A stretch of DNA of 64,000 bases from Trypanosoma brucei (Eukaryota): the NCBI GenBank assembly GCA_000002445.1, contig CH464491.1, positions 4,320,001-4,384,000 on the forward strand. The letters run 5' to 3'. Under the pieces are notes generated by a model that saw nothing but the letters and a program-made list of their open reading frames with translations, did not search any database and was not told the origin of the DNA. Positions 11,772 to 44,903 of this stretch are shown here, one piece after another; positions within the stretch are counted from its first letter, which is position 1, and each line of letters opens with the position of its first letter. A program made the translations under genes and the position numbers.

Positions 11772-11797
11772 ATATATATATATATATATATATATAT
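11772..11797. repeat. (AT)n microsatellite
   Basis: atatatatatatatatatatatatat. Confidence 0.85.
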
Positions 11798-14700: not shown

Positions 14701-16180
14701 GTTCTATTATCATTATCATTATTATAATCATTCATTTTCATTTTTTCCCCTTCCTCTTTTTTTTGTCTTTTTTCTTCTTTTTTTTCCTTTTTCTTCTGTT
14801 ACCTTTTTATTATTTTATTTTTTTTGTTATTTTTTATTTTATTTTATTTTATTTTTTGAGCGTTACTGTCCTTTTTTCTTTGTTGTTGCTGGGTTCCAAA
14901 AATTCGGCGAGTACTCCAACAACAATAACAATAAATAACAACACGGAGGGAAGTGAGAAGGAAGCCACACACATATATGTATAAACATAAGCACAAACGC
15001 ACGCAAACACACAAAAACGAACAAAAAAAAAGCAAAGGAAGGAAGGAAAGAGACACTAAAATGTCTGAACTTCCACAAGTGACAAAACAAATACGGGAAC
15101 GGAAAAACGAAAGAAAAAAAAAGGAAAGAGAAAACAAAAACAAAATAAAATAATAAAATAGTAAAAGATACGCACAATGAAAAAAAAAAAGTACAACATA
15201 CATACTTTTATAACTCCCTCCACAAATGCACATGACCACTAGCCACGACCACGTGCACACAAAAGAAAAAAAAAGGAAAAGGGAAAAGGAACAAGGAAGA
15301 ACCAGAGGGAAAAGGGAAAAAAAAAGAACAACAACACACTTTTCCAATGTGTTTCTCATAATATATATATATATATTCATATTTATATTTATTTATTTAT
15401 ACCTACAAATATATAAATATAGGTGTGTCTGTGCATTTGTGTCTATGTTCATATATGTGTTCATTCATTCATTTCCCCCTTGTTTTTCCTTCCTTTCCTT
15501 TCCTTTCCTTTCTTCTCCCTTTTTTTCTTTTTCCTCCTCCCCCTCTTCTGTTAGTCTATTTCAAATATTAGGTTTTTGGGTTTGTCCTTCCCCTATTTCT
15601 TCCCTCGCTTCCACAGCTCGTTGGAAACATGCGGTCTCACCATTTTGTATTGGTCATCAGTATTTTACTTCGTATGGTGTGTCGCAGCCTCTTTCGTTTT
15701 GATCATTTCACTTATATCGAGTCTTTCTTTTTGATGTGTGTATGTGTGCGTGTGTGCATGAGTTCGATTCTTCTCTCCCATTCGACGGGAATGTATGGGC
15801 TCAGTCATCTTTTCTTTTCCTTTTTTTTCGTGATTACTTTTTCCTTTCGTCTTCATGCTTCAATTTATGACCCATACATACACATAAACAAACAAACACA
15901 CACACACACACACACGGACACATGATTTGCTCCGCCTAAAGCGCTACATCGACATCACTTTACTTCTTCTCTTCGCTGTTTCCACGCTTTGCTCTCTCTC
16001 TCTTTTTCTCTCTCGATCTCTCTTTTTCAATCCTACGACTGCTCCAAATACTTCAACCGTTTTCTTCGCTAACCGCTAGTTTCTTTTCTTCTGATCGTTC
16101 CTTTTCACGTCATGCATTTCCCCCCCCCCCAACACACACACACATTCTTCCACTTACCATCACCTGCTTTCAGTTGACTT

Positions 16181-17809
16181 TTACACATATGTAAGCAACA
16201 GCGGCGAGATGACGTAGTCGGAGGCGGAACTGCGTTGGTTAACAGGCTGCCGCGACACCTCAGGTCCCGGGAGCTGTGAAGCCTCCGGGTGCTGCTGCCG
16301 CTGCGTAAAGTATGGAGAAGAAGGGCTTAATGGCATCGCCGGCATCTCCGCCGGAGAGTTGTTCGTATATGAAGTCGGTCGCGAGGTGTAGACGGGCTCA
16401 AACGAATACCCCTGAGACGCATTCAACACACGAGATTGTTGTTGTTGTTGTAAGTGGGGCGGATGATGGTGGTGGTGGTGGTGATGATGATGCGTTTGCT
16501 GTTGTTGTTGTTGCTGCTGAAATGAGTTGTGGTGATGTTTGTAAGACGGGCCCGGTGGCACTACGAGTGGACCTCTACCTTGTTGCATTGGGCCACAACT
16601 ACCGAAGGAAACAGGTCCCGCTGCATGTTGTTGGTGCAGCGGCAGGTTGTTGGTCATATAACCACTGGAACCGCCATGCGGAGATCCCGCCTGTTGATGC
16701 TGTTGCCGATAGCCACCGCGGCTCTGGTACGGGTGCCCGCCCATGTGTTGGGAATGCCCACTTAGGCCGCCGTGGGGATGGGGGTGGGAACGATGCATCT
16801 GCTGAAGCTGTTGTGGGTGAAGGTGGCCGTGGCCTCCACCGCCTCCGTAACCACCCCTGTAGGCCGAGTTGTATTGCTGCCGCTGCGACCGCATCGAGTG
16901 GCCTTGAGACGGCATTTGGGGGGAACGCGTGTTCAAATGAACACGGTGAATAAAGTTACACAAACTTCCACGCCCACACCTTTCGCGTTCGTAATGCTTG
17001 CAAAACCGGAGATATTTCGTGGAGTCACTGTGTTGAGCCTCCTCGCTGCCCTTCGTACGGTAGACTTGCTCTGAAGGCACTTGCACCGGGTTCGCTGCTC
17101 CGCCTCGCAAAGAGTGACCCGCGTTGATGTAAAAAACTGAGCCTGGTTCATGTCGCTCGTATGGTGCTTCTTCCAATAAGGCAACAGGTGTGGACCAGTG
17201 AACCAGATTGACAGTCACAGGCAAGTCACCGTCACGAGGTTCTGCAAAGGTGTGCCGACTGTGGATGAAGTCACAACGGTCCCCGTGGGCACACGAGGCA
17301 TTGGTGGAAAAGGATTTGCAAAGGTATAGTGCGTAACTCGGCTCCTTTGTACCTCTGTTTCGTGACAAATAGTTTTTCGACCCAGAAGTAGTCTCGATGA
17401 ATTCGGACGGGATACACAGCGCTTTGTTCTTGTCAGCACTCAGCACGTGGAAGCGGCGGTCGTGCTGACCCGACTCATTGGCATCGATATTATCCCCATC
17501 AGTACCCTTGTCAGGGGCCACTAATTCTGTTGGCGCCTCGAGTGGTTCCTTCTGCGGTTTGCTGCTACTGCACCTACTGTTGCTCCCGCTCCCAGGAAGT
17601 ACCTTGGTGAAACAACTTTCAGGTCGATCCGTGTTAGGCAGCACAGGGGAAAGAATGTCTAACCCCGCCTGCTGCTCCTGTGGCGAGCCCAAAGAGTCCT
17701 TCGCTTCACTCATTCTCTGCTCGCGTGTTCCCTCTTTCTTTTGCACTCTTGCTGTCACTCTTTTGATTCCACGGCTTCGAACACACACACACTCTCTCTC
17801 TACCGTCAC
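16181..17809 (-). CDS. CCCH-type zinc-finger RNA-binding protein with poly-Q and poly-H tracts (start probably the internal ATG at 17713)
   Basis: Two C-x7/8-C-x5-C-x3-H fingers (CKSFSTNASCAHGDRCDFIH; CKHYERERCGRGSLCNFIH). Q/H/G/Y-rich low-complexity C-terminal half (QQQQQQQQTHHHHHHHHHHPPHLQQQQQ). The first 32 codons of the track ORF run through a (CA)n/(CT)n tract, so MSEAKDSLG at 17713 is the more plausible start. Confidence 0.8.
   Translation of the reverse strand: MTVERECVCVRSRGIKRVTARVQKKEGTREQRMSEAKDSLGSPQEQQAGLDILSPVLPNTDRPESCFTKVLPGSGSNSRCSSSKPQKEPLEAPTELVAPDKGTDGDNIDANESGQHDRRFHVLSADKNKALCIPSEFIETTSGSKNYLSRNRGTKEPSYALYLCKSFSTNASCAHGDRCDFIHSRHTFAEPRDGDLPVTVNLVHWSTPVALLEEAPYERHEPGSVFYINAGHSLRGGAANPVQVPSEQVYRTKGSEEAQHSDSTKYLRFCKHYERERCGRGSLCNFIHRVHLNTRSPQMPSQGHSMRSQRQQYNSAYRGGYGGGGGHGHLHPQQLQQMHRSHPHPHGGLSGHSQHMGGHPYQSRGGYRQQHQQAGSPHGGSSGYMTNNLPLHQQHAAGPVSFGSCGPMQQGRGPLVVPPGPSYKHHHNSFQQQQQQQQTHHHHHHHHHHPPHLQQQQQSRVLNASQGYSFEPVYTSRPTSYTNNSPAEMPAMPLSPSSPYFTQRQQHPEASQLPGPEVSRQPVNQRSSASDYVISPLLLTYV
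16438..16518 (-). repeat. Coding trinucleotide repeats, mRNA-sense (CAA/CAG)n-(CAC/CAT)n-(CAG/CAA)n, encoding Q8-T-H10-PP-H-L-Q5
   Basis: Plus strand gttgttgttgttgta...ggtggtggtggtggtgatgatgatg...gttgttgttgttgctgctg lying inside the CCCH protein CDS. Confidence 0.9.
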
Positions 17810-17975
17810 TTCCTTCTTTCCTTAGTACTCTTTTCGCCTACGTCGCCTCCAATAGGTTTTTCTTCCTTTTCCTTGATAGTGATACTGGCAGTAGTTATAA
17901 CAATGAGTAAGGAGAGAATTGCAGTCAAAAAGAAAAAAAAGTAAGAAAAACAATTCATCACACAAGAACCCTGAT

Positions 17976-17985
17976 CCCCCCCCCC
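17976..17985 (-). repeat. G10 homopolymer (mRNA sense) upstream of the CCCH gene
   Basis: cccccccccc on plus strand. Confidence 0.9.
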
Positions 17986-19824
17986 TCTCCCTCCATCTCC
18001 TTTTTGGCCCCCTTTCTTCCGTATTTTTTATTATAACAATTAACTATTTATTTATAGAAATATCCCTTCTTCCTTCCTGGTCGCTTGTTGAAATCTTTCT
18101 TCACATAGAACGGTCGAGTGGAAGTGGCGAGAAAATAAAACACAAAAGAAGAGTGGCGAGTGGCGACGAGGCAGCGATACGTAGAGCGCAGGGCAGCCCT
18201 CTAAGAACAGAAGCCGAATGCTAATGATGACAACGATAATAATTGCAGCAAAGACAGTTGTGAGTATGATGGGTCCCAACGAAATAATGAGTACGAACGC
18301 CCCCGCAGAAGTGAAGAAAAAGAAAGGAAAGAGGACAAACAGCCCATAAACAGTAAAGCTCACCGCAGCACCCGCAGACACTGACAGTACAGCAGAGCGG
18401 GCATTACCCCAATTATGCACGTTTCTTTTTTTTTTTAAATTTCCCCTTTCTTTTCTTCTCTTTCTCCTTTGATTTCATTCGACACATTCGAGCACAACAT
18501 CAGACACACACGCAACCAATAGGGGGAAAGGGAGCATACGTTCACTTCACGGCAAAAGGAAACAATGCGGACAACCAACTTAGAAACAACTGCATGGCCC
18601 TCGACTCATTTTCCCTCAACGCAGCGCTCCTCTGTCATTTGTACTATTGCTACAAATGTTTATCCATTCCCATCCATCCACGGAAATGGGAATGCAAAAG
18701 CATGAAATCACGAAATCAAAAAAAAAAAAACAACGAAACTGCGACACCTCATTCTTAACAATCTTGACCACATTTCACATTAAGCCTGAATTAGAGTGAA
18801 AGATGTCAATATGGAAATAATACAACAGTAAAGGGAAGATGGAAATGGGAAAGAGGATGTGAAAGGCTCACCACAAGCAAATGCCGCTTCTCTCCATTTT
18901 TTCCATTCTTTTACCCACAAACAAGTTTACTCCTTGCAGTTAAATCTTCTCCCTTTTGGCAACAAAGCATGACGATTGGTGTTGTTACCGTCGTTAGCCG
19001 CTGCCGCCCACATCAATAAATATGTGGAGACAAAAGATAAAACATAAGCACTGAAACTAATGAAAAGTGAGCTAACAGTTAACTCAACAACATCAACAAC
19101 AAAAAAGTGGTAGAATGGAATAAGACCAACAACAGCAGGTTGAAAAGAAAAAAAACCCTACACTTCCACAAAACTAACACACACACATTCGTACAACTTA
19201 CATCCCTCTCCGGTCAAGTCATGGTCCACTTTCACTTATGAAAACTAATATTTACCAACTGGTGCTGCAAGTCCTCATGAATGATCGACACGGCTACGAT
19301 TCCAATTCTTTTTATTCTTTACGCATCGCCTCTCTCCCTCTCTTTCTCTCTTGTCATATGGCGCTGTGTTCTTCCCTTCCCCCGGTTGCACTTGCGATGT
19401 GCCAATTTGTATTACCTCGGACCCCTTCCTCTTAATAATACCGAATGCGCCAACACCTGGAGGAAGGGTTTTGAAACGCATATGAGTGTTACGCAAAAAA
19501 AAAGAAATACACTAAAGAGGGATCGGAGAAGTGGGAAACTGACATGCAGAATCCCCACTGGGAACACTGCCGTGTCTTTCCACAACCATTATTTTAGTTT
19601 ATGAATATTCCACATCATCTTTTCTCCTCAAGCACCCCCCCCCCTTCACTTCCACACGGTGCATTACTAATAGACGCCGTGATGGGGGTTTCTTCATTCG
19701 TCCTTTCACCATCCCAAAATAACGGAACACATCCACCACTTCAGTCCCAAAGGAGAAAACAAAAACAAAAAAAGAACATTCAACAGACCTCTCTCCCCCT
19801 CGCCCTCCCTTTTCACAATGCTTC

Positions 19825-21150: not shown

Positions 21151-21643
21151 CTATAGCTTACGGGATCGTTGGAGCCCTCCCACCGCTCTCTCTCTCTCTC
21201 TCTTCAGTTTCCTTCTGCACTTCTTTATTTATTTCTTGTATGATATTCCACACCAGCCTCCCCCACAGCAACCCACGATACCGCTCCCTCCAACGTGGCT
21301 CTCCTCCGTAGTTCTTTTCCGCCACGCTGCCTTCCTCAACTCGCCTCCAGTGTGAAGGTCGTTACAAAAATATCTGTATATATGTAAAAATGTATAAACT
21401 ACAAGCGCCACTACAAGAGGACCATATGGAATGAAAACGATTAGCAAAATATGTGCCACGCAAGAAATGGTTAAATAATACGGGCCAGAAGCGTCTCGAG
21501 CACATAAAAAATATATTGCAGTAATGGTGTGCTCGTACAGTCGCCCAGGAAGGAAAGGCGCAGTGTAGCAATATATATATATATTATAACACTAACAAAT
21601 CTCCTCCCCAAAATAAAAGCTACATGCGGCGCAGCCACAGCAA

Positions 21644-23404: not shown

Positions 23405-24273
23405 GATATAACAAAGTTACGCACGCAGAACAGAGAGGGGGGAACGAAACCATGGAAAAACAGGAGAGGGTAAACAAGCGAATAAAAAGGTTAGCATAGC
23501 CTCTTTTGAAGATAAGTATGGAGGGAATGATTACTACGGTGTGCTCATCGTGGGGAGGGGAAGCTTACGATAGAAAGTACCAACGGGTGAAATGAGACGA
23601 AAAAAAACAAAAAATATATATGACCAACAAAAGATACCAAGGTCCTCTACATGCTTCAAAACATTCAACGATATACTTACTCCTCGTCGGCTTCCGCCGC
23701 ATTCTCATCATTGCCGGCGTTGTCCTCAACAACTTCTTCAACTTCATCCCCCACTTCCTCCTCACTGCTCTCAACAGCCTCATTGCGAGGTTGGGTTTCC
23801 TTGCAGCGGTGCCTCATTATGTCAAGTACAGATGAACCATAGTAAGTTGCTCCGGAGCAGGCGATAGTAAGGGCGGGCATCAGTCACCCACAACTGTTTG
23901 TTCGATATAGAGTAGAGTAGATACACTGTACTAATGGAGTGTAGCACCTCTAAATGGTAGCGATTTGGCGGTGAATTCCTTTTGCAGTTTCTTCTTTTTT
24001 TTTTTTTAGCGTTACCCTCGTCGATACACTACTACTTCTAATAAAGGTGCTAAAGATGGCTATAAAATGCAGACGCTGGGAAGAGTAAGGAAAAGTATTA
24101 TGCATTCCTCATCGTGGTTGACTGACGAAACGATAATGCGCACGCAGCGTGCCAATCGTGCCCCTAAACACGTACGCATACACACTTAAGCAAATGGAAA
24201 AAGTTTGCAAATTAATGATGACAAAACCACCATGAGCTTACCTACCGCCCAGCGTAGCAACACACATTACCGC

Positions 24274-26280
24274 TCACAGCACCACGTACAAAAACCTCTC
24301 GTAAGGAATGATTGGCTCACCGAACGCAAACTGGGCGGCTGAGGCGAAAGAGTCCAAGCTCAACTCAATGGCACCTTGTTCCTCCCGAACACGACCCATG
24401 CCTTCATGGGCAGCAGTGAGCCGTGGGCTGCAGTCGATCGCCAACTGAAAGTAATGCGCCGCACTGACCAAATGAGTTTCACGGGTACTTGACACATTCC
24501 CCGGCCCCAGTGCCACTAGCAAATCAAGGCGGCCAAGAAGCAAATATGCCTCAGCACAGTGGCTACCCACTTGCAGAGCTTTTCCAAGCATTGTCTGTAA
24601 GGATAGTACCTCATCATGGCTCAGAAGCTTCCGCTGCTCACGCATGTATCGGTCATCCTTAACCCCCCGAAGCTGAGCGGCAGCTCCCCAATTTTGCGCA
24701 AAGCGACGTTGCCTCAAGAAGTAGTCGAAAGATCCTTCAATCAAATCAATCTTGACACGCGCTGCGGAGCATAACAAGTCACAATAGGCTTGTTTCTGCT
24801 CACCCTGTACACCACTTATGTACTCTAGTCCTGCATCTGCGGCGAGCTGAGCGATGGAACCGCAGCCAACCAGCAGCGCGACATGCGCTAATAAGGCCCA
24901 GTGGCCAGCAATCAATCTTTTGTGTTTCCCACCACTACTCCACACGTCGTCGAGAGAGAAAAGTTTCATGGCAGAATCGTCAACGGGGAAGACGGCGTGG
25001 CCGGACGTGCTGGACACCTCCTGAGGTGCTTCCTTCGAGGCAGCCTCCACACGTCCCACTAACACTGCAAGAAGGTTCTCAACACACTTCTGCTTACGAT
25101 GATCAGCATCGTCCACCATATTTTGTAATGCAGTGAAGACGACCCCACACAAAACATTAAGGGGATACATCTGGCCAGCGTGACCCGCCACCTTCGAAGC
25201 CTCTTCATGCTCTCCAGAAGCAGAGTGTAACAAGGCCAACAACACGAGGACTTCAGCTTCAGCTTGACATCGCTTGAGAAGGAACTTTACTATCTCCATT
25301 GCCCTCCGTTCCTCACCGACGAGAGCACTCAGCCATGCCTGTTTGGCAAGCAATATAGCGTCCATAGGGTTTGACATGTTCCTTGCCATTACGAGCCCGG
25401 AGGAATATTCGAGAAGCTTTCGCACCCTTCCCTCCAATGTGCTGCGGCCACCACTCTCCTTAACCTCACGCCCCAGGCAATAGCAGGCCGTACACAACTG
25501 CAAAATCGTTAGCGGACAGCAATGCGCCGACACTGCCCTCTCCGCCAACCGTACGGCTTCCCGGAGTGACACTTCCGTTCCACCCTGCACCCCAAGACGC
25601 GAGCCTAACAAAAGAAACCGTGCTGCGAGCCACCGCCGCGAGCCAACAACTGTGGGGAAGGTGGTGGACGGCGCTAAACCCCCTTCACATTCAGCGTTGA
25701 TCCCTGCGACACAATAACTGTCGTCATCATCCTGCTGCGTTTGGTCCGTGGTGGAATGTTGTGAATGGTGGGCAGTTGGCATTGGTGGCGAAGAATCGCT
25801 CCCTTCTTCTTCGTCATCGACCAAAGCGCGAGACGTATCCTCCATCATACTCATCAGCCGCTCCAACGGCACATTGTTGCGCTGCAAACACGACATGGCC
25901 ACATCCACCCACTGTTGTGCTGACACAGGTGGGGAAAACGTGGGGTCTCTTCTGACTCTCAATGCGGGTTGAGTGGCGGATGCATTGTCACACACAGCAA
26001 ACGCCGCAACCGCCGAAAGCTGTTCCGGATGATCACCCGGGTTGAGCATAATATTCCGATAATCAAACACTAAGTGCGCCAGTGAGGCCCCCCCCCCCGA
26101 CTTTCTTGACAACGAAAAACAAGGGACGAAACACAAAGATGGCAGGAGTAACGACGAAATTTGGCAGCGCACAGCATCGCCCAAAAAGTTACCGCGATCA
26201 CATGTACGAATTCGGGCGGCTACGTGTGCATACTCAGGCCTTGCCACCTGTGCACAGAGAGCCGCAAATCGTGCTAGCAC
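24274..26280 (-). CDS. Hypothetical protein with TPR-like helical repeats (alternative start at 26049)
   Basis: 668-aa ORF. C-terminal region has TPR-like helices (AEAYLLLGRLDLLVALG...HYFQLAIDCSPRLTAAHEGMG). N-terminal 77 codons are R-rich (MLARFAALCAQVARPEYAHVAARIR, presequence-like) and contain a G11 homopolymer on the mRNA strand (plus 26088-26098), so a downstream start at MLNPGD (26049) is possible. Confidence 0.6.
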   Translation of the reverse strand: MLARFAALCAQVARPEYAHVAARIRTCDRGNFLGDAVRCQISSLLLPSLCFVPCFSLSRKSGGGASLAHLVFDYRNIMLNPGDHPEQLSAVAAFAVCDNASATQPALRVRRDPTFSPPVSAQQWVDVAMSCLQRNNVPLERLMSMMEDTSRALVDDEEEGSDSSPPMPTAHHSQHSTTDQTQQDDDDSYCVAGINAECEGGLAPSTTFPTVVGSRRWLAARFLLLGSRLGVQGGTEVSLREAVRLAERAVSAHCCPLTILQLCTACYCLGREVKESGGRSTLEGRVRKLLEYSSGLVMARNMSNPMDAILLAKQAWLSALVGEERRAMEIVKFLLKRCQAEAEVLVLLALLHSASGEHEEASKVAGHAGQMYPLNVLCGVVFTALQNMVDDADHRKQKCVENLLAVLVGRVEAASKEAPQEVSSTSGHAVFPVDDSAMKLFSLDDVWSSGGKHKRLIAGHWALLAHVALLVGCGSIAQLAADAGLEYISGVQGEQKQAYCDLLCSAARVKIDLIEGSFDYFLRQRRFAQNWGAAAQLRGVKDDRYMREQRKLLSHDEVLSLQTMLGKALQVGSHCAEAYLLLGRLDLLVALGPGNVSSTRETHLVSAAHYFQLAIDCSPRLTAAHEGMGRVREEQGAIELSLDSFASAAQFAFGEPIIPYERFLYVVL
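26088..26098 (-). repeat. G11 homopolymer on the mRNA-sense strand (C11 on plus), ~40 nt upstream of the candidate start ATG at 26049
   Basis: ccccccccccc read directly on plus strand. Confidence 0.9.
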
Positions 26281-26412: not shown

Positions 26413-27828
26413 CTACACCCACCTCCTCCCATTTTCGGATAGATCGTAATCCTCGGGCAACATTTCGTCCGCTCGGCGAACCACCATTCCATGCCTCAGT
26501 GAAACGATGTTGAGACGCGCGTCAAGAACACCGCTCACCAGGGTGTGACCCTTCAATGTGGCGCCATTGAGACCCTCCGATGCCGCTATCGCTTCCTCAA
26601 CAGACGACATGCCAAGTAGTGCCGCACCAGTGAAAGATCCACTTCGGTCATCAATTGAAATGCGCACATCTACAACAGTGCCATACTCTGAAAAGCAAGC
26701 TCGCAGCTGATCGACCGTCAACCAATACGGCAGTCCATCTACTACCACATCAGGGATAAAAGACTGATGATGAGAGAATCCTCCATCCCCACCCTCGGCG
26801 GCATCTGCGCCCTTAGACGGGTCCTCGACAACCTCCACGCCCACCTCCTCCAATACACGATCCACATCTGCACGCGTGTACACATTATACTCCGGCTCAT
26901 GTAATGCAATGAAGGTAAGCTCTCTATAGTAGGCATAACAAACAGCCTGAAGGGCGTTATTCATTGAATCAACAGTCACAATAAAGTCCTGAACGTGGCT
27001 CACACCGCCGGATCGTCTATCATCCCCAACCTGCTGTTCACGCACCAACACACATGAAACTTGACCGTAGCGCCCAAAGTACGTGTTCATTGTTTCCTCA
27101 TTTAACTGGTATTCAGAAGTCATACGAACGTACAACTGGGTTAAAGCCGCAGGTGTAGTCACCACTGGTGGCCGCACGAGAAAAAGCCGGTCCAACTCCT
27201 CTGACCTCTCTGCCTGGCCCCCGGAAGTCGTCGCCGCAGAGGTCAACGACGGCTCTATCCTCGAGTCGGCTTGTGTGTGCATATCCTTCCCAGCACTGTC
27301 GACCATTCCCACAGAGTCAACCGCCTTCACCACACCACTTTCTGATGCGTCTTCACTTGTACGCACCCTAGTTTCTAACTCATTTTCCTCGCGCTCCCGC
27401 TTACGACCGCTAATTGGCTTCGTTTCTTCGCTGCTAGCCGCGTCAGGGGCACCGCTGCCACGGCCACTATCATTGATGTTATCATTAACTGGCAGATCCC
27501 GTAGGATCCCCACACTGCTGACGGGTGGCGCCACGACCAACTCGGGGAAGGATAGGAACGAAAAAATGTTAGAGCAGATGCTTCCCGCCACAGGGGAACC
27601 AAACCGGCGACTGAGGCAGAGCAAAATAAGTTTCGCGTGCTGTTTGGTGGCTGGACTCACTGATGAAAAGAAGAGTGGCACAAGAAAACAATTTTCCGCA
27701 TACACACGGTGTAGGTGCGGCACCAAATGCAGTAAACGAGCCAAATGATAAGTTTGCAGGTCCCGAGTCCCCGCTGATGTGCTCATCCCTACTGTCCCCC
27801 CCCCCACAAGTTTTTCCCTTGTTTTCAA
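26413..27828 (-). CDS. RRM-domain RNA-binding protein (likely start at 27786)
   Basis: C-terminal RRM-like fold (VVDGLPYWLTVDQLRACFSEYGTVVDVRISIDDRSGSFTGAALLGMSSVEEAIAASEGLNGATLKGHTLV). A second RRM-like segment lies upstream (TYFGRYGQVSCVLVREQQ...VTVDSMNNALQAV). The first 14 track codons include a G10 run, so MSTSAGTRDL is the likelier start. Confidence 0.6.
   Translation of the reverse strand: MKTREKLVGGGTVGMSTSAGTRDLQTYHLARLLHLVPHLHRVYAENCFLVPLFFSSVSPATKQHAKLILLCLSRRFGSPVAGSICSNIFSFLSFPELVVAPPVSSVGILRDLPVNDNINDSGRGSGAPDAASSEETKPISGRKREREENELETRVRTSEDASESGVVKAVDSVGMVDSAGKDMHTQADSRIEPSLTSAATTSGGQAERSEELDRLFLVRPPVVTTPAALTQLYVRMTSEYQLNEETMNTYFGRYGQVSCVLVREQQVGDDRRSGGVSHVQDFIVTVDSMNNALQAVCYAYYRELTFIALHEPEYNVYTRADVDRVLEEVGVEVVEDPSKGADAAEGGDGGFSHHQSFIPDVVVDGLPYWLTVDQLRACFSEYGTVVDVRISIDDRSGSFTGAALLGMSSVEEAIAASEGLNGATLKGHTLVSGVLDARLNIVSLRHGMVVRRADEMLPEDYDLSENGRRWV
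27796..27805 (-). repeat. G10 homopolymer (mRNA sense), 10-19 nt upstream of the likely ATG at 27786
   Basis: cccccccccc on plus strand. Confidence 0.9.
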
Positions 27829-31874: not shown

Positions 31875-31885
31875 CCCCCCCCCCC
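31875..31885 (-). repeat. G11 homopolymer (mRNA sense), ~270 nt upstream of the start of the C2HC gene
   Basis: ccccccccccc on plus strand. Confidence 0.9.
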
Positions 31886-32861
31886 CGCCTCGCCTCGCCA
31901 TTCCTCCTCCTCCTTTCCCTTCATAAGCACATACAAGCAGATATGCATTTGCACATATATAAATAATTAAGTACTTCATCACATAGGGATGAGAAGGAAT
32001 AAGCAGAAAAATGAGGGCAAATAATCAGGGAATGAGCAGCCACTTATCATTTTAGCTCCATCACACTTTCCTGCGTAATGCGAAGGGAGAAGACCGCCGT
32101 GGATCCGCACGGAGACGATACAAGCAGTGAAAAAAGAAATAATTATAAAAACAACAATAATAATAACAATAATATCGATCAGCATGGGGGGGAGGTAATA
32201 CGCGAAACGATAAACGCTTTACTCAAAACAATTATGACAATAATAACAAAAAAGGTAAAACTTTTTTTTTAAAGGTGACAAATACGAGGAGAGAATCAGA
32301 GGAAAAGCGGAATCACGAGACAAATACGAGGCCGACTGGCTTCCCTCAATATCATGCGCCCCCGTCATTTCAAAAAATTGGTTTTCCCTCTGGCGCCATC
32401 TCTTCTTTTTTTTTACGTTTTTTTTTTTTCGATTATGGAAAGATCGATGTGTACACCCATCGCTTCTTTCCTTTTCAGTCCTTCTTATTTGGCTCCCCCC
32501 TCCTCCTCCTTTTCTTTCGTACAACACTTCGTAGCGCACGCATACATACACAAAAAAAAACATGTACGACCGCACAATAAAAGAAAGATATATTTAATTT
32601 AGACTTTAAAATCTCATGCTGCGTTCCCACATCCCTCCGTCAAAAGTTTTCCCATTGGCATCGCATCCGCCACATGAGATTCGTGCTTTAGTATCCACGC
32701 ACACCTTTTTACTCAACCCCCAAATGAATTAACATTTTTATTTTTTTTAAAAAAAGAGGACAGAAAAGGTAAGATAAAAGATGGAAAGAAAAGAAAAGAA
32801 AAACAAAAAAAAAATACAAACAGTTAAATAAAACGTTAAAACGATGCCCCAATCCAAAGAC

Positions 32862-35497: not shown

Positions 35498-35994
35498 AAG
35501 AAGGTCAGAGGGGGGAGGGAAAAGCTGAATCAGAAGCGAAATTAGAAAATGAACACCGAAGAACCAACGTAATAACCGGGCCTATTTGTGTCACTTAATA
35601 CCACTCATAACTCACGCAAAGAATACGAGAGCGATATGTGTATAAATAAATATTTATGTATGTGTGTGTCTGTCCGTTTTTTTTTTCACATATATATACC
35701 GTTATTGTAGCTTAATGTTGTAAAGGAAACATTATCGTCACTCGCACGTAAAAACGAAGGACTTACACCCCACGTTGTCCATGAAACGAAATGAACAACA
35801 GCAATAATAACGATAACAACAAGACAACGATAACAGGGGCTAAAGAGTTAGGGGAAAAAATCTTAAGGTGAGAGTGGTATTTCATCTTTTTTTTTCTTCG
35901 CCCTGCGGCTGCAGAGGAGAGAGTTAACGAATATGCGGTATGCAGCGGCAAGAAAGAAAAAAAAAGAGAAAATAGAGAACAAATAAAGCGCCTG

Positions 35995-39422: not shown

Positions 39423-41750
39423 TCATACGGACACTGCCGACTTCGAAGAAGTAGACTCGAAGTCAGTGCCGTACTCACTATCTTTATCATCATGTTCTCT
39501 ATCACTATCCTCTTTCTCAGTGCCACTTTTACCCTTACTATCGCTGTCACTCTTTCCTTCAGAAGTCTCTTTGGATTCACTGTCTTTACCTTCCTTCGTC
39601 CCCTCATGTGATTCTGATTCGCTGCTAGAACCCTCAGTGCTTTGCCGTCGGCTCCCCTTCTCGCCCGAGTCTACTTCCCCGTCGCTTCCAGACTTGGAAG
39701 GTTCATCCTTTTCATCGTTATCACGCGCTTCCCCATCAGGTTCCGATTTTTTGCTGGCTTCACCAGCTGCGGCCGCAGCAGTGGCGGCATTATCAGCGCC
39801 CGCAGCGTTATCATCATCACTTGCATCGGCGCAGCCCTGTATGATAGCAGATAATGTGCCTCCATCTACACCACTCTCTTTGAGAAGCCGTAATATCTCC
39901 TTTTCCGTCTCCGCACGCACCTTGGCGGCACTATGTAGGTGAACCGGCTCCACAAATATGGGTGGTATTTGAACTACACGCGACAGCATTTCGTTAAGCT
40001 GCTCTGCCGCTTCACGCTCGGCCTCGCGGCCTAGCCGACGCAACTCCGTTACCTTTTTGCGGATAACATCATCAGTGTTAACTTGGGTGCTCTTCAAATA
40101 CTCCTTCAGTCGAGCATTCACCCGTTTCTGCCGCTGATATGCCTCCTTTAACGCAGCGGTCTCCTCACTCCTCTTGTCTTGGTATTGCTTAGCTTCAGCT
40201 GCTGTGATGTATCTTTCAAACACAGCTTGGGTACGCATCGCATGTGCTCGTGTCCCTTTAGGAACTGATAACCCCCTCTTATCCTCAGCCTCACCAGTGC
40301 CTCCAGAACTGCCTTCCTTCCCCTCCGGTGGCTTTGGTACCGAACGTTTCCGGCGGGCTGGTCGGGTCGCCGATCCCGGGCGCTGCTGCTTTTTCCGATG
40401 CAGTGACCGACCCCTAATAACTTCTTCTTTGCCTGAGACCGTTAATTTGAATGGTTCCACCTGTGTTGGTTGACGCTTGAGTTTCCTCTCTGCAAGTGCA
40501 AGCCGCTCCTCAGCCCACAATGCCTCGAAGTTGGGCACTCCCCCGCGGATTTTGGGTTTAAACGTCAAGTTCGGGTTGCGTTTTGCCGATGTACTTCTTG
40601 AACGCCTTTTGGGAGTCTTATCTTCTTTGCTTTCTGAAACTCCTCCGCTGACCTTTGGTTTAGACAAGGGCGCCATCACAAGTACACCGGTGGGTGGCGA
40701 TGATGATGGAACCGCCGAAGAAGGTGGAGGGGCTGTTGTCGTATGCTGGGAAGAAACAGTTACAACCGGACCGCTCACCGGCACGATGTTTGCCGCTCTG
40801 TCGCCCTGTTGTTGTACCTGCTGCTGTTGTTGCCGCTGATGTAGTTGTAGGAACTCAACCGGAGTCATCCCGAACCACGGTTGTGTACGGCCTGTTTGCT
40901 CTGCTGCAGCAACGCGTTGAGACTCCTCTGCCTTCACCTCCTCCATCTGATGCACAGCCCGTTGCTTAATGCGCTCAACTCGTATCTGTTCGTGCTCCTC
41001 AATGGCGGGCCATAACTTGAGAGCTACTTCAACCGGGACGTCGCGGATCTCTGACACCTGGCGGCAATCCCTTGCATTATGACCGCGACTATAATCCGAT
41101 TCCGACCCCCGCTGGCGGCGCGCACCCATGACCTCACGAACGTTACGCAAACCAGACACGCACAACTGCATGAACTCTTTTTCCTCCCGAATTCGTTCAG
41201 CCTTTTCCGCAGCGAGAGCTTCTACCATGACACGCCGTTGTCGCCACTCCTCTACCATGAGATCATACTTATTCATGTACGTGGAAGGCGGTACGGGATT
41301 TGACTTGAAGCGGCGGTTCAACTCGCGCTGTTCTTCTTGCTCCCGCTTCAATCGGTCTTCTTCCATGCGACGCGCATGTATGCCCCGCGGCCTCCTCAAT
41401 TCGCGCGCTTCGAAGGAAAATGGTTGCACGTTCCGCAATTTCTCCATGCGACGTTCCTGGTAATCACGAAAGTTGTTGAGGGCACTAAAGTACCGCTGCA
41501 TCGTTCTATGGGCCTCGCGCCGATGGCGCCTGCGTATCTCATCCAAACGCTCGACTGGGGAAATGGCGCGGGTGTTGTGAAAATCGGCAGTTTGAGATTG
41601 AAAGGTATTGGCATCGACGGGTTCCGGCATCTGTAACGTTTCGGGCGTTGGGTGCACAGCGGACAACTCCTTCTCGAGCAACTCCTGCTGGTGCCTGAGG
41701 TCATGAAGCTTCAACAAACTCACCATCTCTCCGTCCACCTCCGCCTGCAT
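39423..41750 (-). CDS. Charged coiled-coil protein with acidic Ser-rich C-terminus; possible FAM161/TPX2-like microtubule-binding motifs
   Basis: 775 aa, R/E/K/Q-rich heptad-like N-terminal half. PFSFEAREL and FKSNPVPPSTY segments. C-terminal ~150 aa is S/D/E/K-rich (SDSDSKGKSGTEKEDSDREHDDKDSEYGTD). Confidence 0.6.
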   Translation of the reverse strand: MQAEVDGEMVSLLKLHDLRHQQELLEKELSAVHPTPETLQMPEPVDANTFQSQTADFHNTRAISPVERLDEIRRRHRREAHRTMQRYFSALNNFRDYQERRMEKLRNVQPFSFEARELRRPRGIHARRMEEDRLKREQEEQRELNRRFKSNPVPPSTYMNKYDLMVEEWRQRRVMVEALAAEKAERIREEKEFMQLCVSGLRNVREVMGARRQRGSESDYSRGHNARDCRQVSEIRDVPVEVALKLWPAIEEHEQIRVERIKQRAVHQMEEVKAEESQRVAAAEQTGRTQPWFGMTPVEFLQLHQRQQQQQVQQQGDRAANIVPVSGPVVTVSSQHTTTAPPPSSAVPSSSPPTGVLVMAPLSKPKVSGGVSESKEDKTPKRRSRSTSAKRNPNLTFKPKIRGGVPNFEALWAEERLALAERKLKRQPTQVEPFKLTVSGKEEVIRGRSLHRKKQQRPGSATRPARRKRSVPKPPEGKEGSSGGTGEAEDKRGLSVPKGTRAHAMRTQAVFERYITAAEAKQYQDKRSEETAALKEAYQRQKRVNARLKEYLKSTQVNTDDVIRKKVTELRRLGREAEREAAEQLNEMLSRVVQIPPIFVEPVHLHSAAKVRAETEKEILRLLKESGVDGGTLSAIIQGCADASDDDNAAGADNAATAAAAAGEASKKSEPDGEARDNDEKDEPSKSGSDGEVDSGEKGSRRQSTEGSSSESESHEGTKEGKDSESKETSEGKSDSDSKGKSGTEKEDSDREHDDKDSEYGTDFESTSSKSAVSV

Positions 41751-42984
41751 CGCTGCTAGAGAAGTTTTGGGGGGGGGGAGGTGATTTATCTCCTAATTTC
41801 CTTCCTTTTCCTTAAGCGGGAGAATGGAAACAAGGCAAATGTGGTATTAACAAACAAGCAGTTAAAGAAATGAACACGTAAGTAGGGGGAAATAGGATTG
41901 GGGACGAAATACATCGCCTGCAGTCGGTAAGTACGGTAACGTAAAGCGACAGGAAATTTTAACGTAGAAAAAAGTACAGAGACGGAACGTGACGCAAAAA
42001 TAGAATGAAATAAAATAACCAATCGTATATAAAAACTAGCCGCTGAGATAGAGAGCTCATCCTCGTTTAATTGAACTGGCATCAATCATAAGAGAGTGGA
42101 ATTCGCAACCAAATTACGAAAACGAACCACGGGAAGAGACCTTCGCCTCCCTTCCCACACTTAAACGCATACACGCAGACACGGAAAAAGCGCTTCTAAA
42201 AAAAAAAAAAAGCGACTGGTATCTCCCCGATATTCGTCCCGATCAGCAGCTTGGATTGTTGTTTTTGCTGTTGTTTTGTTTTACATCAACACATCTCCTC
42301 ACCCCCATCCCTCTCCTCATGTCCCGCTTGTTTTCCCCCAGGCGAGTCCCATGCGCACACCACCACTACCCCAAGTGATGGGCACGAGGAGATACAAAAG
42401 GGAGAAAACGAACTCCTTGGATCATCACACCGAAACAACAAAACGGGACGAAAGAAAAAAAAACCTCCTTCTCCTTTTCATACTCACACTCCGTGCGCAC
42501 CAAAACGAATAAACAAGCAAACATAAACATCCAAAGCATTCGGGATTAACAGCAACCTTCTACCAGATAGAAGCAGCACAATGCTCACCAGTAGAACATA
42601 CAAATAAACAAGTGGCAGATGACCCTTCCATCCACAAATCCAGAAAGAACACCGGCAACGACTGACAGAAACAATGGAACAGATAACAACGATAGTGGCA
42701 AAACTGAATACACTCATTAAATAAAGAAAGTTAAACTAACAGTAGTGATATCTGCGCGTAGTGGCCTTCTACATCCCTTACCGCTACCTTTTATTACCGT
42801 TTCGTGGCACCAGACCCCAACGCTCCCGGCAGCACTTGATTTTTAGCGTCCACAAATGATACACGGAATATATATAATTATTATCATAGGCGGCAGTAAC
42901 AAGCGATAAAACGGCAACAGCAATCCTCAAATCCTGTACCAACCTCAGCTCCACCACCACCAACGCTCCCCTCCAATAACCTCT

Positions 42985-44889
42985 TCATTCAACACCCGCA
43001 ATCGCCCCGGCGCTTTGCCACTGGTGGTACTCAGCGACGAAAATCAATGCGCTCCCCGCCATCATGAGGATACTGCCGGTTGCCTCAAGCGGCCAAAACA
43101 CGACAGAATCGAGCAGAAGACGGGAAATTAGCAAAGAAATTGCACCACCGAAAACAAAACTACCCGGGACACAAAGCCGGCTAAAGAAGGGGGAACTACA
43201 GTGATAAATCAAATGATATAAAACCAAAAAGAACACGCTAAAGAGAACCGAGGAAAAGTCCGTCATAACTAACACAAAGAGTGAAGATTGGGTGGACTGC
43301 GTCGGTAGTGAGAAGCCACCAGAGGCATAGGATGCTAAAGCCAGCATCAGCGTTACCGTGACGAGAGTAACAAAAGAAAGAAACAGGCCACTCACCTCCC
43401 TTCCCACACTTCGAAACTGAAAGAGATAAACGCACATAGCAGCGCCACCGCTGATTGCTATGGCAACGGGCCAAAGACATCTAAAAGTCACGTCGTCACC
43501 TTCAACAAAACACCCAATGACGAGTGCAGCAAAGGCCCACACGATGAGAATGGAAGCCATAGTACTCAAAAGTGGAACATTGTGTAGCTTGAGCACCTCA
43601 TAGAGGTGAGTTCCAACAAAAGGGCAGCAACAGAAACAGACGAAACCAACCGCACTGTTAGTAAACATAAACATGCAAACAAGTGACAAAGTGGCAAGCG
43701 CACCGCAAAAAGCGACACACATAACACGCGAAATACCGCTGCAGCTACTTATCACATCTACCTCCTCACGGCCTGGGCGCCACAGCAGTGCTAAAAAAAG
43801 CAACATGATCAACGAAGCAAGTCCGCTGGACACGAAGTCTACGAGCGACACGGCAGTAATGCGTTCTATCCCCTCCCTTGGGCCTGCAATAACAGCGATT
43901 ACACCCCAATGAAGCACAAACAAGGTAACAGCAATGAACAAGCCTGCCAGCGCCAGCCATGGGTAGTGGGACTCTACTATCACTTGAATTTCATTGTGGG
44001 TTTCCACAAACGACACAGACCCAACAACTGTCTCTGAGAATCGGACCCTTTTTACTTTCTTCCCAGGGGTGCGAGGTGTCGGACCCTCGGCAGGGCCCTC
44101 AGTGCCTTTCAGACTGTTTTTAGGTAAGTGGTCGCGAAATAACAGTGGCTCCAAGTAGTCAGGCACACCATCTGTGTAGTTAACCCGAGGGACCCCTTCG
44201 GTGACCTTCAGCCCCCGCCACCCCACATCATACGAAGAAGAACCGTCCTTCTCTTCTCGGATGTCGGGCCACAACCAGCAACAATTCGGTGGCAATGGTG
44301 CACTTTTGACCACGTCCCTTTCTTTTCGCCCATTTCCAGGGTGCTGCCACGGAGTGATCACCGGACTGACAGTAAAAGCCGGTGTGAAGTCCCCCCCCGC
44401 GGCTCTGTCGTCCCGCTGATAACACCAACTCACCCTCAGTTCCTGAGTATCATGAAGCAATGGCGACCCGTAACCAACCCCATATTCCATTGAACGAACG
44501 CTATCAGCTACTGGTGTGACACTTGATGTCTTCACCCTACTGTATTCGGCTCCATCACAATCGTTGACATAACTGATCCTGTCGACATCGCAACCACCAG
44601 TTCTGCCGCTACCACCACCGCCATCGCCACAATAAACATCGCTAATGACTCCATGGCGGCCATCAGCCTCGCTTGTAGCCCTTGCAAACGTAGAACAATG
44701 TCCAGAAATAGATGTTTCAGGTGATACCGTATCCGGCGAAGCGAGGGCCACGTACGCCGTCTCCCTACCAATCGTGTAGGGAAGGTACCGCTCAATCTCA
44801 TTGTGACGCCAGGGGGAAGTTGTTTCTTCTTCAATAACGGAGCTAACGCATGACACCCCATCCCTGGACTCACTTTCCCGGGCGCTCAT
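42985..44889 (-). CDS. Polytopic membrane protein (~10 TM) with a ~330-aa N-terminal soluble domain (track ORF extends to 45018)
   Basis: C-terminal two thirds are hydrophobic helices (YPWLALAGLFIAVTLFVLHWGVIAVIAG..., ...SILMMAGSALIFVAEY). The first 43 track codons run through (TA)n (MHIYIYIYLW...), so the ATG at 44887-44889 (MSARESESRDG) is preferred. Confidence 0.65.
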   Translation of the reverse strand: MSARESESRDGVSCVSSVIEEETTSPWRHNEIERYLPYTIGRETAYVALASPDTVSPETSISGHCSTFARATSEADGRHGVISDVYCGDGGGGSGRTGGCDVDRISYVNDCDGAEYSRVKTSSVTPVADSVRSMEYGVGYGSPLLHDTQELRVSWCYQRDDRAAGGDFTPAFTVSPVITPWQHPGNGRKERDVVKSAPLPPNCCWLWPDIREEKDGSSSYDVGWRGLKVTEGVPRVNYTDGVPDYLEPLLFRDHLPKNSLKGTEGPAEGPTPRTPGKKVKRVRFSETVVGSVSFVETHNEIQVIVESHYPWLALAGLFIAVTLFVLHWGVIAVIAGPREGIERITAVSLVDFVSSGLASLIMLLFLALLWRPGREEVDVISSCSGISRVMCVAFCGALATLSLVCMFMFTNSAVGFVCFCCCPFVGTHLYEVLKLHNVPLLSTMASILIVWAFAALVIGCFVEGDDVTFRCLWPVAIAISGGAAMCVYLFQFRSVGREVSGLFLSFVTLVTVTLMLALASYASGGFSLPTQSTQSSLFVLVMTDFSSVLFSVFFLVLYHLIYHCSSPFFSRLCVPGSFVFGGAISLLISRLLLDSVVFWPLEATGSILMMAGSALIFVAEYHQWQSAGAIAGVE

Positions 44890-44892
44890 AGA

Positions 44893-44903
44893 CCCCCCCC
44901 CCC
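44893..44903 (-). repeat. G11 homopolymer (mRNA sense), 4 nt upstream of the likely ATG at 44889
   Basis: ccccccccccc on plus strand, immediately 5' of tatgagcgcc (minus-strand ATG). Confidence 0.9.

What the first reader, a model, noticed from the sequence alone, without database searches (positions are those of the whole stretch)
16120..44903. Recurrent G10-G11 homopolymers on the mRNA-sense strand upstream of several genes' start codons and in two 3' UTRs
Homopolymers of C on the plus strand (G on the transcribed strand) of at least 10 nt occur at 17976-17985 (upstream of the CCCH gene), 26088-26098 (about 40 nt upstream of the downstream ATG of the TPR-like gene), 27796-27805 (10 nt upstream of the likely RRM-gene ATG), 31875-31885 (upstream of the C2HC gene) and 44893-44903 (4 nt upstream of the membrane-protein ATG). 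Two more lie in 3' regions (16120-16130, 19635-19644). The opposite case, C11 on mRNA, sits at 41769-41779 just upstream of the coiled-coil gene. Five of about 17 genes share a G-tract of 10 or more nt in the 5' leader, which is unexpected by chance at roughly 50% GC. It suggests either a functional 5'-UTR element (a protein-binding site or G-rich structure) or a systematic homopolymer sequencing artefact.
Basis: seen in the sequence. Interest (0 to 1): 0.5.

Follow-up and report, generated by a model that had tools for sequence, protein, structure and literature searches.

The report
Coding-strand poly-G runs in Trypanosoma brucei
The G10-G12 tracts are real, strand-biased, length-variable poly-G runs in the non-coding spacers of a Trypanosoma brucei gene array, a feature already described for this parasite's genome rather than a new 5'-UTR element or a sequencing error.

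Summary
Seven G10-G12 runs on the transcribed-sense (minus) strand and one sense C10 run lie at the stated positions; two lengths were off by one. All seven are in the 14.9 kb of non-coding DNA and none in the 33 kb of coding DNA. Composition predicts 0.003-0.007 such runs.

The window is T. brucei brucei TREU927 chromosome 11, one minus-strand polycistronic unit. The tracts are not artefacts. Six of the seven G runs (all except 44893, which no other assembly covered) and the sense C run recur at orthologous positions in other Trypanozoon assemblies: T. b. gambiense, T. equiperdum or three read-level assemblies. Their lengths differ at every site (7-12 nt, two with a G-to-A interruption).

They are absent from the syntenic loci of T. 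theileri, T. grayi, T. conorhini and T. rangeli.

Only three sit in predicted 5' UTRs (3, 9 and 38 nt before the ATG). Two lie upstream of the polypyrimidine tract, and two lie 50 and 180 nt after stop codons. There is no shared flanking motif and no stable RNA fold.

Published data already show that G10 is 65-fold over-represented in T. brucei, is the most coding-strand-biased 10-mer in transcription start regions, and is excluded from nucleosomes. Verdict: a known genome feature, of low interest.

The parts
16120..16130 (-). G11 on the sense strand, 50 nt after the stop codon of the CCCH zinc-finger gene (the last gene before the AT-rich spacer). It is directly preceded by (GT)6.
   Evidence: The orthologous run is G12 in T. 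equiperdum and G9 in T. b. gambiense.
17976..17985 (-). G10 on the sense strand, 262 nt upstream of the CCCH-gene ATG. It lies about 25 nt upstream of a 24-nt polypyrimidine tract and about 90 nt upstream of the predicted splice acceptor. It is probably outside the mature 5' UTR. It is the only tract that fits the canonical (G3+N1-7)x4 quadruplex motif.
   Evidence: G9 in T. equiperdum, G8 in T. b. gambiense.
19635..19644 (-). G10 on the sense strand, 180 nt after the stop codon of the nucleotide-sugar (CMP-sialic acid) transporter gene. Probably in the 3' UTR.
   Evidence: G9 in T. equiperdum, G7AG4 in T. b. gambiense.
26088..26098 (-). G11 on the sense strand, 38 nt upstream of the ATG of the TPR-like gene (24274-26049). 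It lies a few nt (about 6-8) downstream of the predicted splice-acceptor AG, so in the predicted 5' UTR.
   Evidence: G9 in T. equiperdum and T. b. gambiense, G8 in two Logan assemblies. The length differences are not multiples of three, so the tract is non-coding.
27796..27805 (-). G10 on the sense strand, 9 nt upstream of the ATG of the RRM gene (Tb11.01.8310, RBP37). In the predicted 5' UTR.
   Evidence: G9 in T. equiperdum; G5AG4 in T. b. gambiense and in two Logan assemblies.
31875..31886 (-). G12 on the sense strand, 327 nt upstream of the C2HC zinc-finger gene ATG. It lies about 105 nt upstream of the nearest downstream polypyrimidine tract, roughly where the upstream gene's poly(A) site is expected.
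   Evidence: G11 in T. b. gambiense.
44893..44903 (-). G11 on the sense strand, 3 nt upstream of the ATG of a 634-aa gene with no Pfam match. In the predicted 5' UTR.
   Evidence: No second assembly could be fetched for this site.
41769..41778 (-). C10 on the sense strand. It forms the 3' end of a polypyrimidine tract 18 nt upstream of the ATG of the FAM161-like gene, so it is probably part of the trans-splicing signal.
   Evidence: A Logan assembly has C11 here where the window has CCTC10.
44391..44398 (-). G8 on the sense strand inside the coding region of the 634-aa gene. It is the only homopolymer of 8 nt or more in coding sequence.

Best explanation
The tracts are poly(dG:dC) mononucleotide microsatellites that sit in the non-coding spacers of a T. 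brucei polycistronic transcription unit, with the G strand on the coding (non-template) strand. This is an instance of a genome-wide property of T. brucei and Leishmania that has already been described.

Shown here:
- They are confined to non-coding DNA.
- They are oriented 7:1 with G on the sense strand.
- They change length faster than A/T runs between closely related Trypanozoon genomes.
- They tolerate interruptions.
- They are not positionally conserved outside Trypanozoon.

Inferred:
- They arise and fluctuate by replication slippage inside purine-rich patches.
- Their orientation follows the known G>C and T>A coding-strand skew.
- Sense-strand C runs persist mainly where they can serve as polypyrimidine splice signals.
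- Any function is generic and acts on DNA, not on individual mRNAs. Candidates are exclusion of nucleosomes from inter-gene spacers and from the region just upstream of ATGs, and possibly a contribution to the GT-rich, direction-giving sequence context that Pol II uses in this organism.
For: Identity of the window: six window proteins are exact matches to TREU927 entries EAN80600-80606, two of them only to TREU927. Synteny with T. b. gambiense chromosome 11 is shown.

Non-coding location and excess over chance.

Strand bias:
- 7 sense G runs against 1 sense C run of 10 nt or more.
- 9 against 3 for tracts with at least 10 of 12 bases G or C.
- GT-only 10-mers: 286 on the sense strand against 84 on the antisense strand.

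Hypervariability: 0 of 9 orthologous G-run comparisons have identical length, against 19 of 46 for A/T runs of 8 nt or more. Alleles at single sites run 8/9/9/11 and G10/G9/G5AG4.

No deep conservation:
- T. theileri, T. conorhini and T. rangeli have no sense G run longer than 7 in the syntenic 20 kb.
- T. grayi and T. rangeli each carry a sense C11 instead.
- The T. cruzi G9 upstream of the same gene is not shared by T. rangeli or T. conorhini at the alignable position.

Other sequence features:
- Positions relative to processing signals are heterogeneous.
- Flanks are purine-rich, 0.62 and 0.59 against a background of 0.48.
- There is no shared flanking motif.
- The three sense C-dense tracts all lie upstream of ATGs within pyrimidine tracts.

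Literature:
- Maree 2017 (PMC5359979): 858 G10 decamers in the Tb427 genome, 65-fold over expectation, and G.C runs longer than 7 bp strikingly absent from nucleosomes.
- Wedel 2017 (PMC5579346): GGGGGGGGGG is the top coding-strand-enriched 10-mer in 199 transcription start regions, with 132/7/27/19/18 coding against 17/12/3/8/1 non-coding occurrences in the five fifths. Synthetic GT-rich sequences drive directional transcription and are nucleosome-depleted. The authors also state that elements other than the polyY tract, possibly in the 5' UTR, must maintain the nucleosome-depleted region upstream of ORFs.
- Thomas 2009 (PMC2679053): G-tracts of 10 nt or more are 'peppered throughout' the L. 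major genome.
Against: - Three of the seven tracts lie within 40 nt upstream of a start codon, although that zone is only 4.3% of the non-coding sequence (binomial P = 0.0024, chosen post hoc). This hints at some positional preference that a purely neutral model does not predict.
- The strand bias in this window alone is only marginally significant (7 against 1, two-sided P = 0.07).
- The density here (12 sense G10 decamer positions in 48 kb) is several-fold above the genome average implied by Maree's count. That comparison crosses strains and counting rules, and the window was selected because it has many tracts.
- Nucleosome, H2A.Z and transcript-end data for this locus could not be consulted, so the DNA-level role is inferred from genome-wide publications.
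- Part of the length differences between assemblies could be homopolymer calling error rather than true polymorphism.
Confidence: 0.7

Rival explanations
1. The tracts are RNA-level cis-elements in 5' and 3' UTRs. They would act as G-tract binding sites for an RNA-binding protein, or as two-quartet RNA G-quadruplexes, and control translation initiation, trans-splicing or mRNA stability of the adjacent genes.
For: - The tracts are strictly oriented to the sense strand.
- Three tracts lie 3, 9 and 38 nt upstream of start codons, downstream of predicted splice acceptors (P = 0.0024 post hoc).
- All seven score at least 1.5 on a G4Hunter-type scale and could form two-quartet structures.
- All tracts checked are retained in three Trypanozoon taxa.
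Against: - Four of the seven are not in predicted 5' UTRs, and two are probably in no mature mRNA.
- Only one fits the canonical three-quartet motif.
- Predicted folds are no more stable than shuffled sequences (z from -1.6 to +1.1).
- There is no common flanking sequence.
- Length varies at every site, and two tracts are broken by G-to-A changes in T. b. gambiense, including the one 9 nt from an ATG.
- They are not conserved in five other Trypanosoma species.
Confidence: 0.1
2. At least the three tracts at 16-20 kb are functional parts of a head-to-tail Pol II transcription start region. That is, they are the known G10 runs that mark the 5' edge of T. brucei start regions. They would help restart transcription across the 14-kb AT-rich spacer toward the next minus-strand gene.
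For: - Wedel 2017 Dataset EV1 shows coding-strand G10 concentrated in the 5'-most fifth of start regions: 132 of 203 coding-strand occurrences.
- Three tracts cluster within 3.5 kb at the end of the gene array.
- Immediately downstream, 8-16 kb carries the window's strongest minus-strand excess of GT-only 10-mers, 331 against 70.
- The G11 at 16120 is preceded by (GT)6, which resembles other top-ranked start-region 10-mers such as GTGTGTGTGG.
- Genes on both sides of the spacer are on the minus strand.
Against: - No chromatin or 5'-triphosphate RNA data for this locus could be retrieved.
- Four tracts lie 10-29 kb further upstream, inside the gene array.
- In a head-to-tail boundary the termination region should come before the start region, whereas these tracts sit among the last genes of the upstream unit.
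- The T-richness of an AT-rich spacer gives many GT-only 10-mers trivially.
- Thomas 2009 found such tracts to be neither necessary nor sufficient marks of initiation in L. major.
Confidence: 0.15
3. The tracts are homopolymer sequencing or assembly artefacts.
For: - Homopolymer length differs between assemblies at every site.
- Four of the five tracts covered in T. equiperdum OVI are exactly G9.
Against: - Six of the seven G tracts are at the same positions in T. b. gambiense DAL972 and/or T. equiperdum OVI (five covered in OVI, six in DAL972).
- Three read-level Logan assemblies (ERR7929162-4) also cover two of the G tracts and the sense C tract. The 44893 tract has no second assembly.
- Two tracts carry a shared G-to-A interruption in DAL972 and in two Logan assemblies. 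That is a heritable allele, not noise.
- TREU927 and DAL972 are capillary-sequenced reference genomes (my own knowledge).
Confidence: 0.02

Closest known systems
Coding-strand G10 / GT-rich elements of T. brucei Pol II transcription start regions (Wedel et al. 2017, PMC5579346; also Siegel et al. 2009 'G-runs', recalled from memory because the paper is not held)
   Same: - Same organism.
- Same uninterrupted G10-or-longer tracts.
- Same orientation, with G on the coding strand. The coding to non-coding ratio is about 5-8:1 in the published set and 7:1 here.
- Accompanied by T-rich and GT-rich sequence on the same strand.
   Different: - The published enrichment is for H2A.Z-marked start regions. 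Here the tracts are spread over 29 kb of inter-gene spacers inside, or at the end of, a gene array.
- Whether any start region overlaps them is unknown.
G-tracts of 10 nt or more in Leishmania major (Thomas et al. 2009, PMC2679053)
   Same: - They were the only motif found at presumed initiation sites, yet they are 'peppered throughout the genome'. The authors judged them insufficient to direct initiation.
- The window shows the same picture: abundant tracts that are not specific to one kind of site.
   Different: - Different genus.
- The Leishmania chromosome 1 tracts are conserved across Leishmania species, whereas the tracts here are not conserved beyond Trypanozoon.
Nucleosome-excluding homopolymers, poly(dA:dT) and poly(dG:dC) (Maree et al. 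2017, PMC5359979; Wedel et al. 2017)
   Same: - G.C runs longer than 7 bp are strikingly absent from T. brucei nucleosomal DNA, and G10 is 65-fold over-represented.
- The tracts sit in spacers and just upstream of ATGs, where nucleosome-depleted regions are reported.
   Different: - Nucleosome exclusion needs no strand preference, so it does not by itself explain the 7:1 orientation.
- Occupancy at this locus was not examined.
Poly-G/poly-C tracts of Caenorhabditis elegans maintained by DOG-1 (PMC2211496; abstract only)
   Same: Another eukaryote in which long G/C homopolymers are far more frequent than composition predicts and are mutationally fragile.
   Different: - Unrelated lineage.
- The paper was not read beyond its abstract.
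- Strand relation to transcription, and dependence on a FANCJ-type helicase, were not examined here.
Bacterial phase-variable homopolymeric tracts, or contingency loci (my own knowledge)
   Same: Hypermutable G/C runs next to start codons. Their length changes alter reading frames, as seen here in the annotation of the TPR-like gene (591, 633, 667 and 619 aa).
   Different: - Here the tracts lie outside the coding frame, downstream of the predicted splice acceptor or just upstream of the ATG.
- No on/off frame switching of the real protein is implied.

Membership tests
T. brucei coding-strand G-run / GT-rich start-region element | Uninterrupted G tract of about 10 nt or more | tested here: met
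   Seven tracts of 10-12 nt. GGGGGGGGGG is the top entry of Wedel Dataset EV1.
T. brucei coding-strand G-run / GT-rich start-region element | [quoted passage not shown] | tested here: met
   7 sense against 1 antisense in 48 kb. The sample is small (P = 0.07).
T. brucei coding-strand G-run / GT-rich start-region element | Location within an H2A.Z/H2B.V/H4K10ac-marked transcription start region | not testable with these tools
   No ChIP-seq tracks or start-region coordinates could be retrieved. A GT-rich minus-strand signature at 8-16 kb is only suggestive.
T. brucei coding-strand G-run / GT-rich start-region element | Drives orientation-dependent transcription in a reporter | not testable with these tools
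   An experiment is needed.
Mononucleotide microsatellite | Perfect homopolymer above the slippage threshold (about 8 nt), located in non-coding DNA | tested here: met
   All seven are in non-coding sequence. Only one G8 is in coding sequence.
Mononucleotide microsatellite | Length polymorphism at orthologous sites among close relatives, with conserved flanks | tested here: met
   0 of 9 comparisons are identical, with flanks about 99% identical. Some contribution from calling error cannot be excluded.
Canonical G-quadruplex motif (G3+N1-7)x4 | Four G3-or-longer tracts with loops of 1-7 nt | tested here: not met
   Only 17969-17991 matches. The other six allow only two-quartet arrangements.
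Conserved gene-specific UTR cis-element | Fixed position relative to the splice acceptor, start codon or stop codon | tested here: not met
   Positions are 3, 9, 38, 262 and 327 nt before ATGs, and 50 and 180 nt after stop codons. Two lie upstream of the polypyrimidine tract. Splice sites are predicted, not measured.
Conserved gene-specific UTR cis-element | Conservation at orthologous genes in other species | tested here: not met
   Absent in T. theileri, T. grayi, T. conorhini and T. rangeli. The T. cruzi tracts are not at alignable positions. T. congolense and T. vivax loci could not be fetched.
Conserved gene-specific UTR cis-element | Shared flanking sequence or RNA structure | tested here: not met
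   No k-mer is shared beyond purine-rich 5-mers. Fold z-scores run from -1.6 to +1.1.

The most novel reading that the evidence does not exclude
The subset of tracts placed 3-38 nt upstream of start codons (44893, 27796, 26088) could be hypermutable 5'-UTR 'tuning knobs'. Their strain-to-strain length changes (8-11 G, or interrupted) would modulate translation initiation or trans-splice-site use of individual genes. That would be a eukaryotic, non-coding analogue of bacterial contingency homopolymers, in an organism that lacks gene-specific transcriptional control.
Probability: 0.06. Interest if true: 0.55.

Novelty: already known. Interest (0 to 1): 0.15.

Why it matters
The finding is an ordinary, published property of trypanosomatid genomes: long G runs on the coding strand, strongly over-represented and refractory to nucleosomes. 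It therefore needs no follow-up as a new element.

Two practical points do matter.

First, the tracts are length-polymorphic. When they lie just upstream of a start codon they shift upstream reading frames, which produces inconsistent N-terminal annotations between strains. The TPR-like gene here is annotated at 591, 633, 667 and 619 aa.

Second, why these runs are so abundant and why they point one way remains unsettled in the literature. A genome-wide analysis relative to mapped splice and poly(A) sites would be cheap and could show whether the proximity to ATGs seen here (3 of 7) is general.

Tried and rejected
- **Siegel et al. 2009.** I tried to read the paper for the original 'G-run' description. 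It is not held, and the related review is not held either. I therefore relied on Wedel 2017, Thomas 2009 and Maree 2017.
- **Literature searches.** Searches for poly-G or G-tract papers in trypanosomes mostly returned quadruplex reviews or false matches such as 'polygenic'.
- **Measured UTR ends.** I looked for measured 5'/3' UTR ends of Tb11.01.8270-8330 in the supplements of Siegel 2010, Kolev 2010 and Nilsson 2010. The files were either not held or were cut before these genes. Splice and poly(A) positions therefore remain predictions.
- **Start-region coordinates.** I looked for start-region coordinates or first-gene lists (Das 2017, Wedel 2017 supplements). None was available.
- **A second assembly for 44893.** Exact-protein look-ups for three window proteins (39423-41750, 35995-38046 and 42985-44889) found nothing. 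The 44893 tract therefore has no second assembly. The 41769 tract was later covered by a Logan contig reached through a homologue.
- **R-loop initiation role.** Rejected as a main explanation. Briggs 2018 found polypyrimidine and poly(A) motifs, not G motifs, in intra-array R-loops, and found GC skew inversely correlated with the signal.
- **RNA hairpins pairing the G run with the neighbouring pyrimidine tract.** Such pairings appear in two minimum-energy folds but are not significant.
- **Non-coding RNA genes.** Rfam and tRNA scans of the window found nothing.
- **Clustering of the runs in the distal part of the array.** This is not significant once the distribution of non-coding sequence is considered: 75% of the non-coding DNA lies in 16-45 kb, and 0.75^7 = 0.13 (from the segments).
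Full report
**What the window is.** All ORFs of 150 aa or more between 16181 and 63980 lie on the minus strand. An ORF that runs off the left end (1 to about 1660) is also on the minus strand. Between them lies a 14-kb stretch of 27-35% GC with no long ORF. Six proteins translated from the window are exact matches to T. brucei brucei TREU927 entries EAN80600-EAN80606, and two of them match only TREU927. The syntenic region of T. b. gambiense DAL972 is on chromosome 11 at 4.36-4.39 Mb. The window is therefore part of a Pol II polycistronic unit of T. brucei chromosome 11, transcribed from high to low coordinates. Genes include a CCCH zinc-finger protein, a CMP-sialic-acid-type transporter, a DEAD-box helicase, a TPR-like protein, RBP37 (Tb11.01.8310), exosome-associated protein 2 and a C2HC protein.

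**Checking the observation.** Sense-strand G runs are 11, 10, 10, 11, 10, 12 and 11 nt at 16120, 17976, 19635, 26088, 27796, 31875 and 44893. A sense-strand C10 lies at 41769-41778. Two lengths were one off. With start codons taken as the first in-frame ATG, my gene models agree with the gene calls in two other assemblies. On those models the unit holds 33.1 kb of coding and 14.9 kb of non-coding sequence. All seven G runs of 10 nt or more are non-coding. Composition-based simulations predict 0.003-0.007. The non-coding G-run spectrum has a gap between 6 and 10 nt. The excess over chance is beyond doubt. The strand bias (7 to 1) is only marginal on its own (P = 0.07). It is backed by G-dense tracts (9 to 3) and by GT-only 10-mers (286 to 84).

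**Artefact or real.** A T. equiperdum OVI contig that is 99.4% identical over 16.4 kb carries the five tracts it covers, as G12, G9, G9, G9 and G9. T. b. gambiense DAL972 carries six, as G9, G8, G7AG4, G9, G5AG4 and G11. Two read-level Logan assemblies have G8 upstream of the TPR-like gene and the same G5AG4 allele upstream of RBP37. A third Logan assembly has C11 where the window has CCTC10. Six of the seven G tracts and the C tract are therefore genuine. The 44893 tract is the exception, because no second assembly covering it could be fetched. Their lengths are unstable. None of 9 orthologous G-run comparisons is identical, against 19 of 46 for A/T runs of 8 nt or more in the same aligned region. 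Some of this could be homopolymer calling error. The shared interrupted alleles show that at least part is heritable variation.

**Position relative to mRNA processing signals.** Kolev 2010 gives the geometry I used: median polypyrimidine tract 18 nt, AG acceptor, poly(A) site typically 123-178 nt upstream of the acceptor, median 5' UTR 130 nt and 3' UTR 388 nt. Against that geometry I located pyrimidine tracts and the next AG in each spacer.
- Three tracts fall in predicted 5' UTRs. 26088 is a few nt (about 6-8) after the predicted acceptor and 38 nt before the ATG. 27796 is 9 nt before the ATG. 44893 is 3 nt before the ATG.
- 17976 lies about 25 nt upstream of a 24-nt pyrimidine tract, in the stretch normally discarded between poly(A) site and acceptor.
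- 31875 lies about 130 nt upstream of the nearest predicted acceptor, near the expected poly(A) site of the upstream gene.
- 16120 and 19635 lie 50 and 180 nt after stop codons.

These are predictions. Measured sites could not be retrieved. The sense C10 is simply the end of a pyrimidine tract 18 nt before an ATG. The other two C-dense tracts also lie upstream of ATGs.

**Tests for a specific element.**
- The flanks share nothing beyond purine-rich 5-mers. They are purine-rich on average, 0.62 and 0.59 against 0.48.
- RNA folds of 130-nt windows are no more stable than shuffles.
- Only one tract fits the canonical quadruplex motif.
- In the syntenic 20-kb loci of T. theileri, T. grayi, T. conorhini and T. 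rangeli there is no sense G run longer than 7. T. grayi and T. rangeli each have a sense C11 instead.
- T. cruzi has its own G7-G9 runs. The one upstream of the TPR-like gene sits next to a block that aligns with T. rangeli and T. conorhini, and those species lack the run.

The tracts are thus a lineage-specific, fast-evolving feature, not conserved gene-specific signals.

**One observation that does not fit a fully neutral picture.** Three of seven tracts lie within 40 nt of a start codon, a zone that is 4.3% of the non-coding DNA (P = 0.0024, threshold chosen after seeing the data).

**What is already known.**
- Maree et al. 2017 counted 858 G10 decamers in the T. brucei 427 genome, 65-fold over expectation. 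They found G.C runs longer than 7 bp strikingly absent from nucleosomal DNA.
- Wedel et al. 2017 searched 199 transcription start regions for 10-mers at least six-fold enriched on the coding strand. GGGGGGGGGG heads the list, with 132/7/27/19/18 coding against 17/12/3/8/1 non-coding occurrences in the five fifths. Synthetic GT-rich sequences built from such 10-mers drive orientation-dependent transcription and are nucleosome-depleted. The authors link this to the known G>C and T>A coding-strand skew. They also note that elements other than the polyY tract, possibly in the 5' UTR, must keep the region upstream of ORFs nucleosome-free.
- Thomas et al. 2009 found G-tracts of 10 nt or more to be the only motif at L. 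major initiation sites. [quoted passage not shown]
- From memory, Siegel et al. 2009 first reported coding-strand G-runs at T. brucei start sites. I could not read that paper.
- Briggs et al. 2018 argue against a primary R-loop role. Intra-array R-loops carry polypyrimidine and poly(A) motifs, and GC skew is inversely related to the signal.

**Interpretation.** The best-supported reading (about 0.7) is that these are slippage-prone poly(dG:dC) microsatellites of non-coding spacers, oriented by the coding-strand skew. Sense-strand pyrimidine runs are read as splice signals, which constrains where C runs can persist. At most the tracts have a generic DNA-level role in keeping spacers and ATG-proximal DNA nucleosome-free and GT-rich.

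A variant I cannot exclude (about 0.15) concerns the three tracts at 16-20 kb. They may mark the 5' edge of a head-to-tail transcription start region that spans the AT-rich spacer. The 8-16 kb segment of that spacer has the strongest minus-strand GT-only 10-mer excess in the window, 331 to 70. That would still be the known element.

An RNA-level UTR function (about 0.1) rests mainly on the ATG proximity of three tracts. An artefact explanation is excluded for existence (about 0.02).

**Verdict.** The interpretation as a 5'-leader element is only partly supported. The artefact alternative is rejected. The phenomenon is already described for T. brucei and Leishmania, so interest is low.

Noticed in passing
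window 2000-16000: A 14-kb stretch of 27-35% GC. It has no ORF over 182 aa, no tRNA and no Rfam match, and it is rich in A/T homopolymers and AT microsatellites. It lies between two minus-strand genes. In T. grayi the orthologous CCCH gene is followed about 3 kb later by the next same-strand gene. The 8-16 kb part has a strong minus-strand excess of GT-only 10-mers (331 against 70), whereas 4-8 kb is balanced. It may be a head-to-tail boundary between transcription units, or an origin.
   Followed up: partly
window 24274-26280 (TPR-like gene) and its orthologues in L001, L002, L009, L010: The same gene is annotated as 591 aa (TREU927, T. equiperdum), 633 aa (T. b. gambiense) and 667 or 619 aa (Logan gene calls). 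The N-terminal differences track the length of the upstream G run (11, 9, 9, 8), which shifts the upstream reading frame. The extensions are probably annotation artefacts, because the predicted splice acceptor lies just upstream of the run.
   Followed up: partly
L005 14351-14361 (T. grayi) and L007 4103-4113 (T. rangeli): Each of these syntenic loci carries a sense-strand C11 in an inter-gene spacer and no long G run. This is the opposite orientation to T. brucei.
   Followed up: no
window 16131-16143 and about 44985-45003: A (GT)6 repeat directly abuts the G11 at 16120 on the sense strand. In T. b. gambiense the GT repeat is one unit longer and the G run shorter. A (TA)9-type repeat lies about 90 nt upstream of the G11 at 44893.
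   Followed up: no
window 13750-13758: A plus-strand G9 (C9 on the minus strand) is the only long G/C homopolymer inside the AT-rich spacer. Its orientation is opposite to the seven tracts of the gene array.
   Followed up: no
L001 7269-7472 (window about 23690-23890): A 67-aa gene is called between the TPR-like gene and the DEAD-box helicase in T. equiperdum, but not in T. b. gambiense. It was not examined.
   Followed up: no
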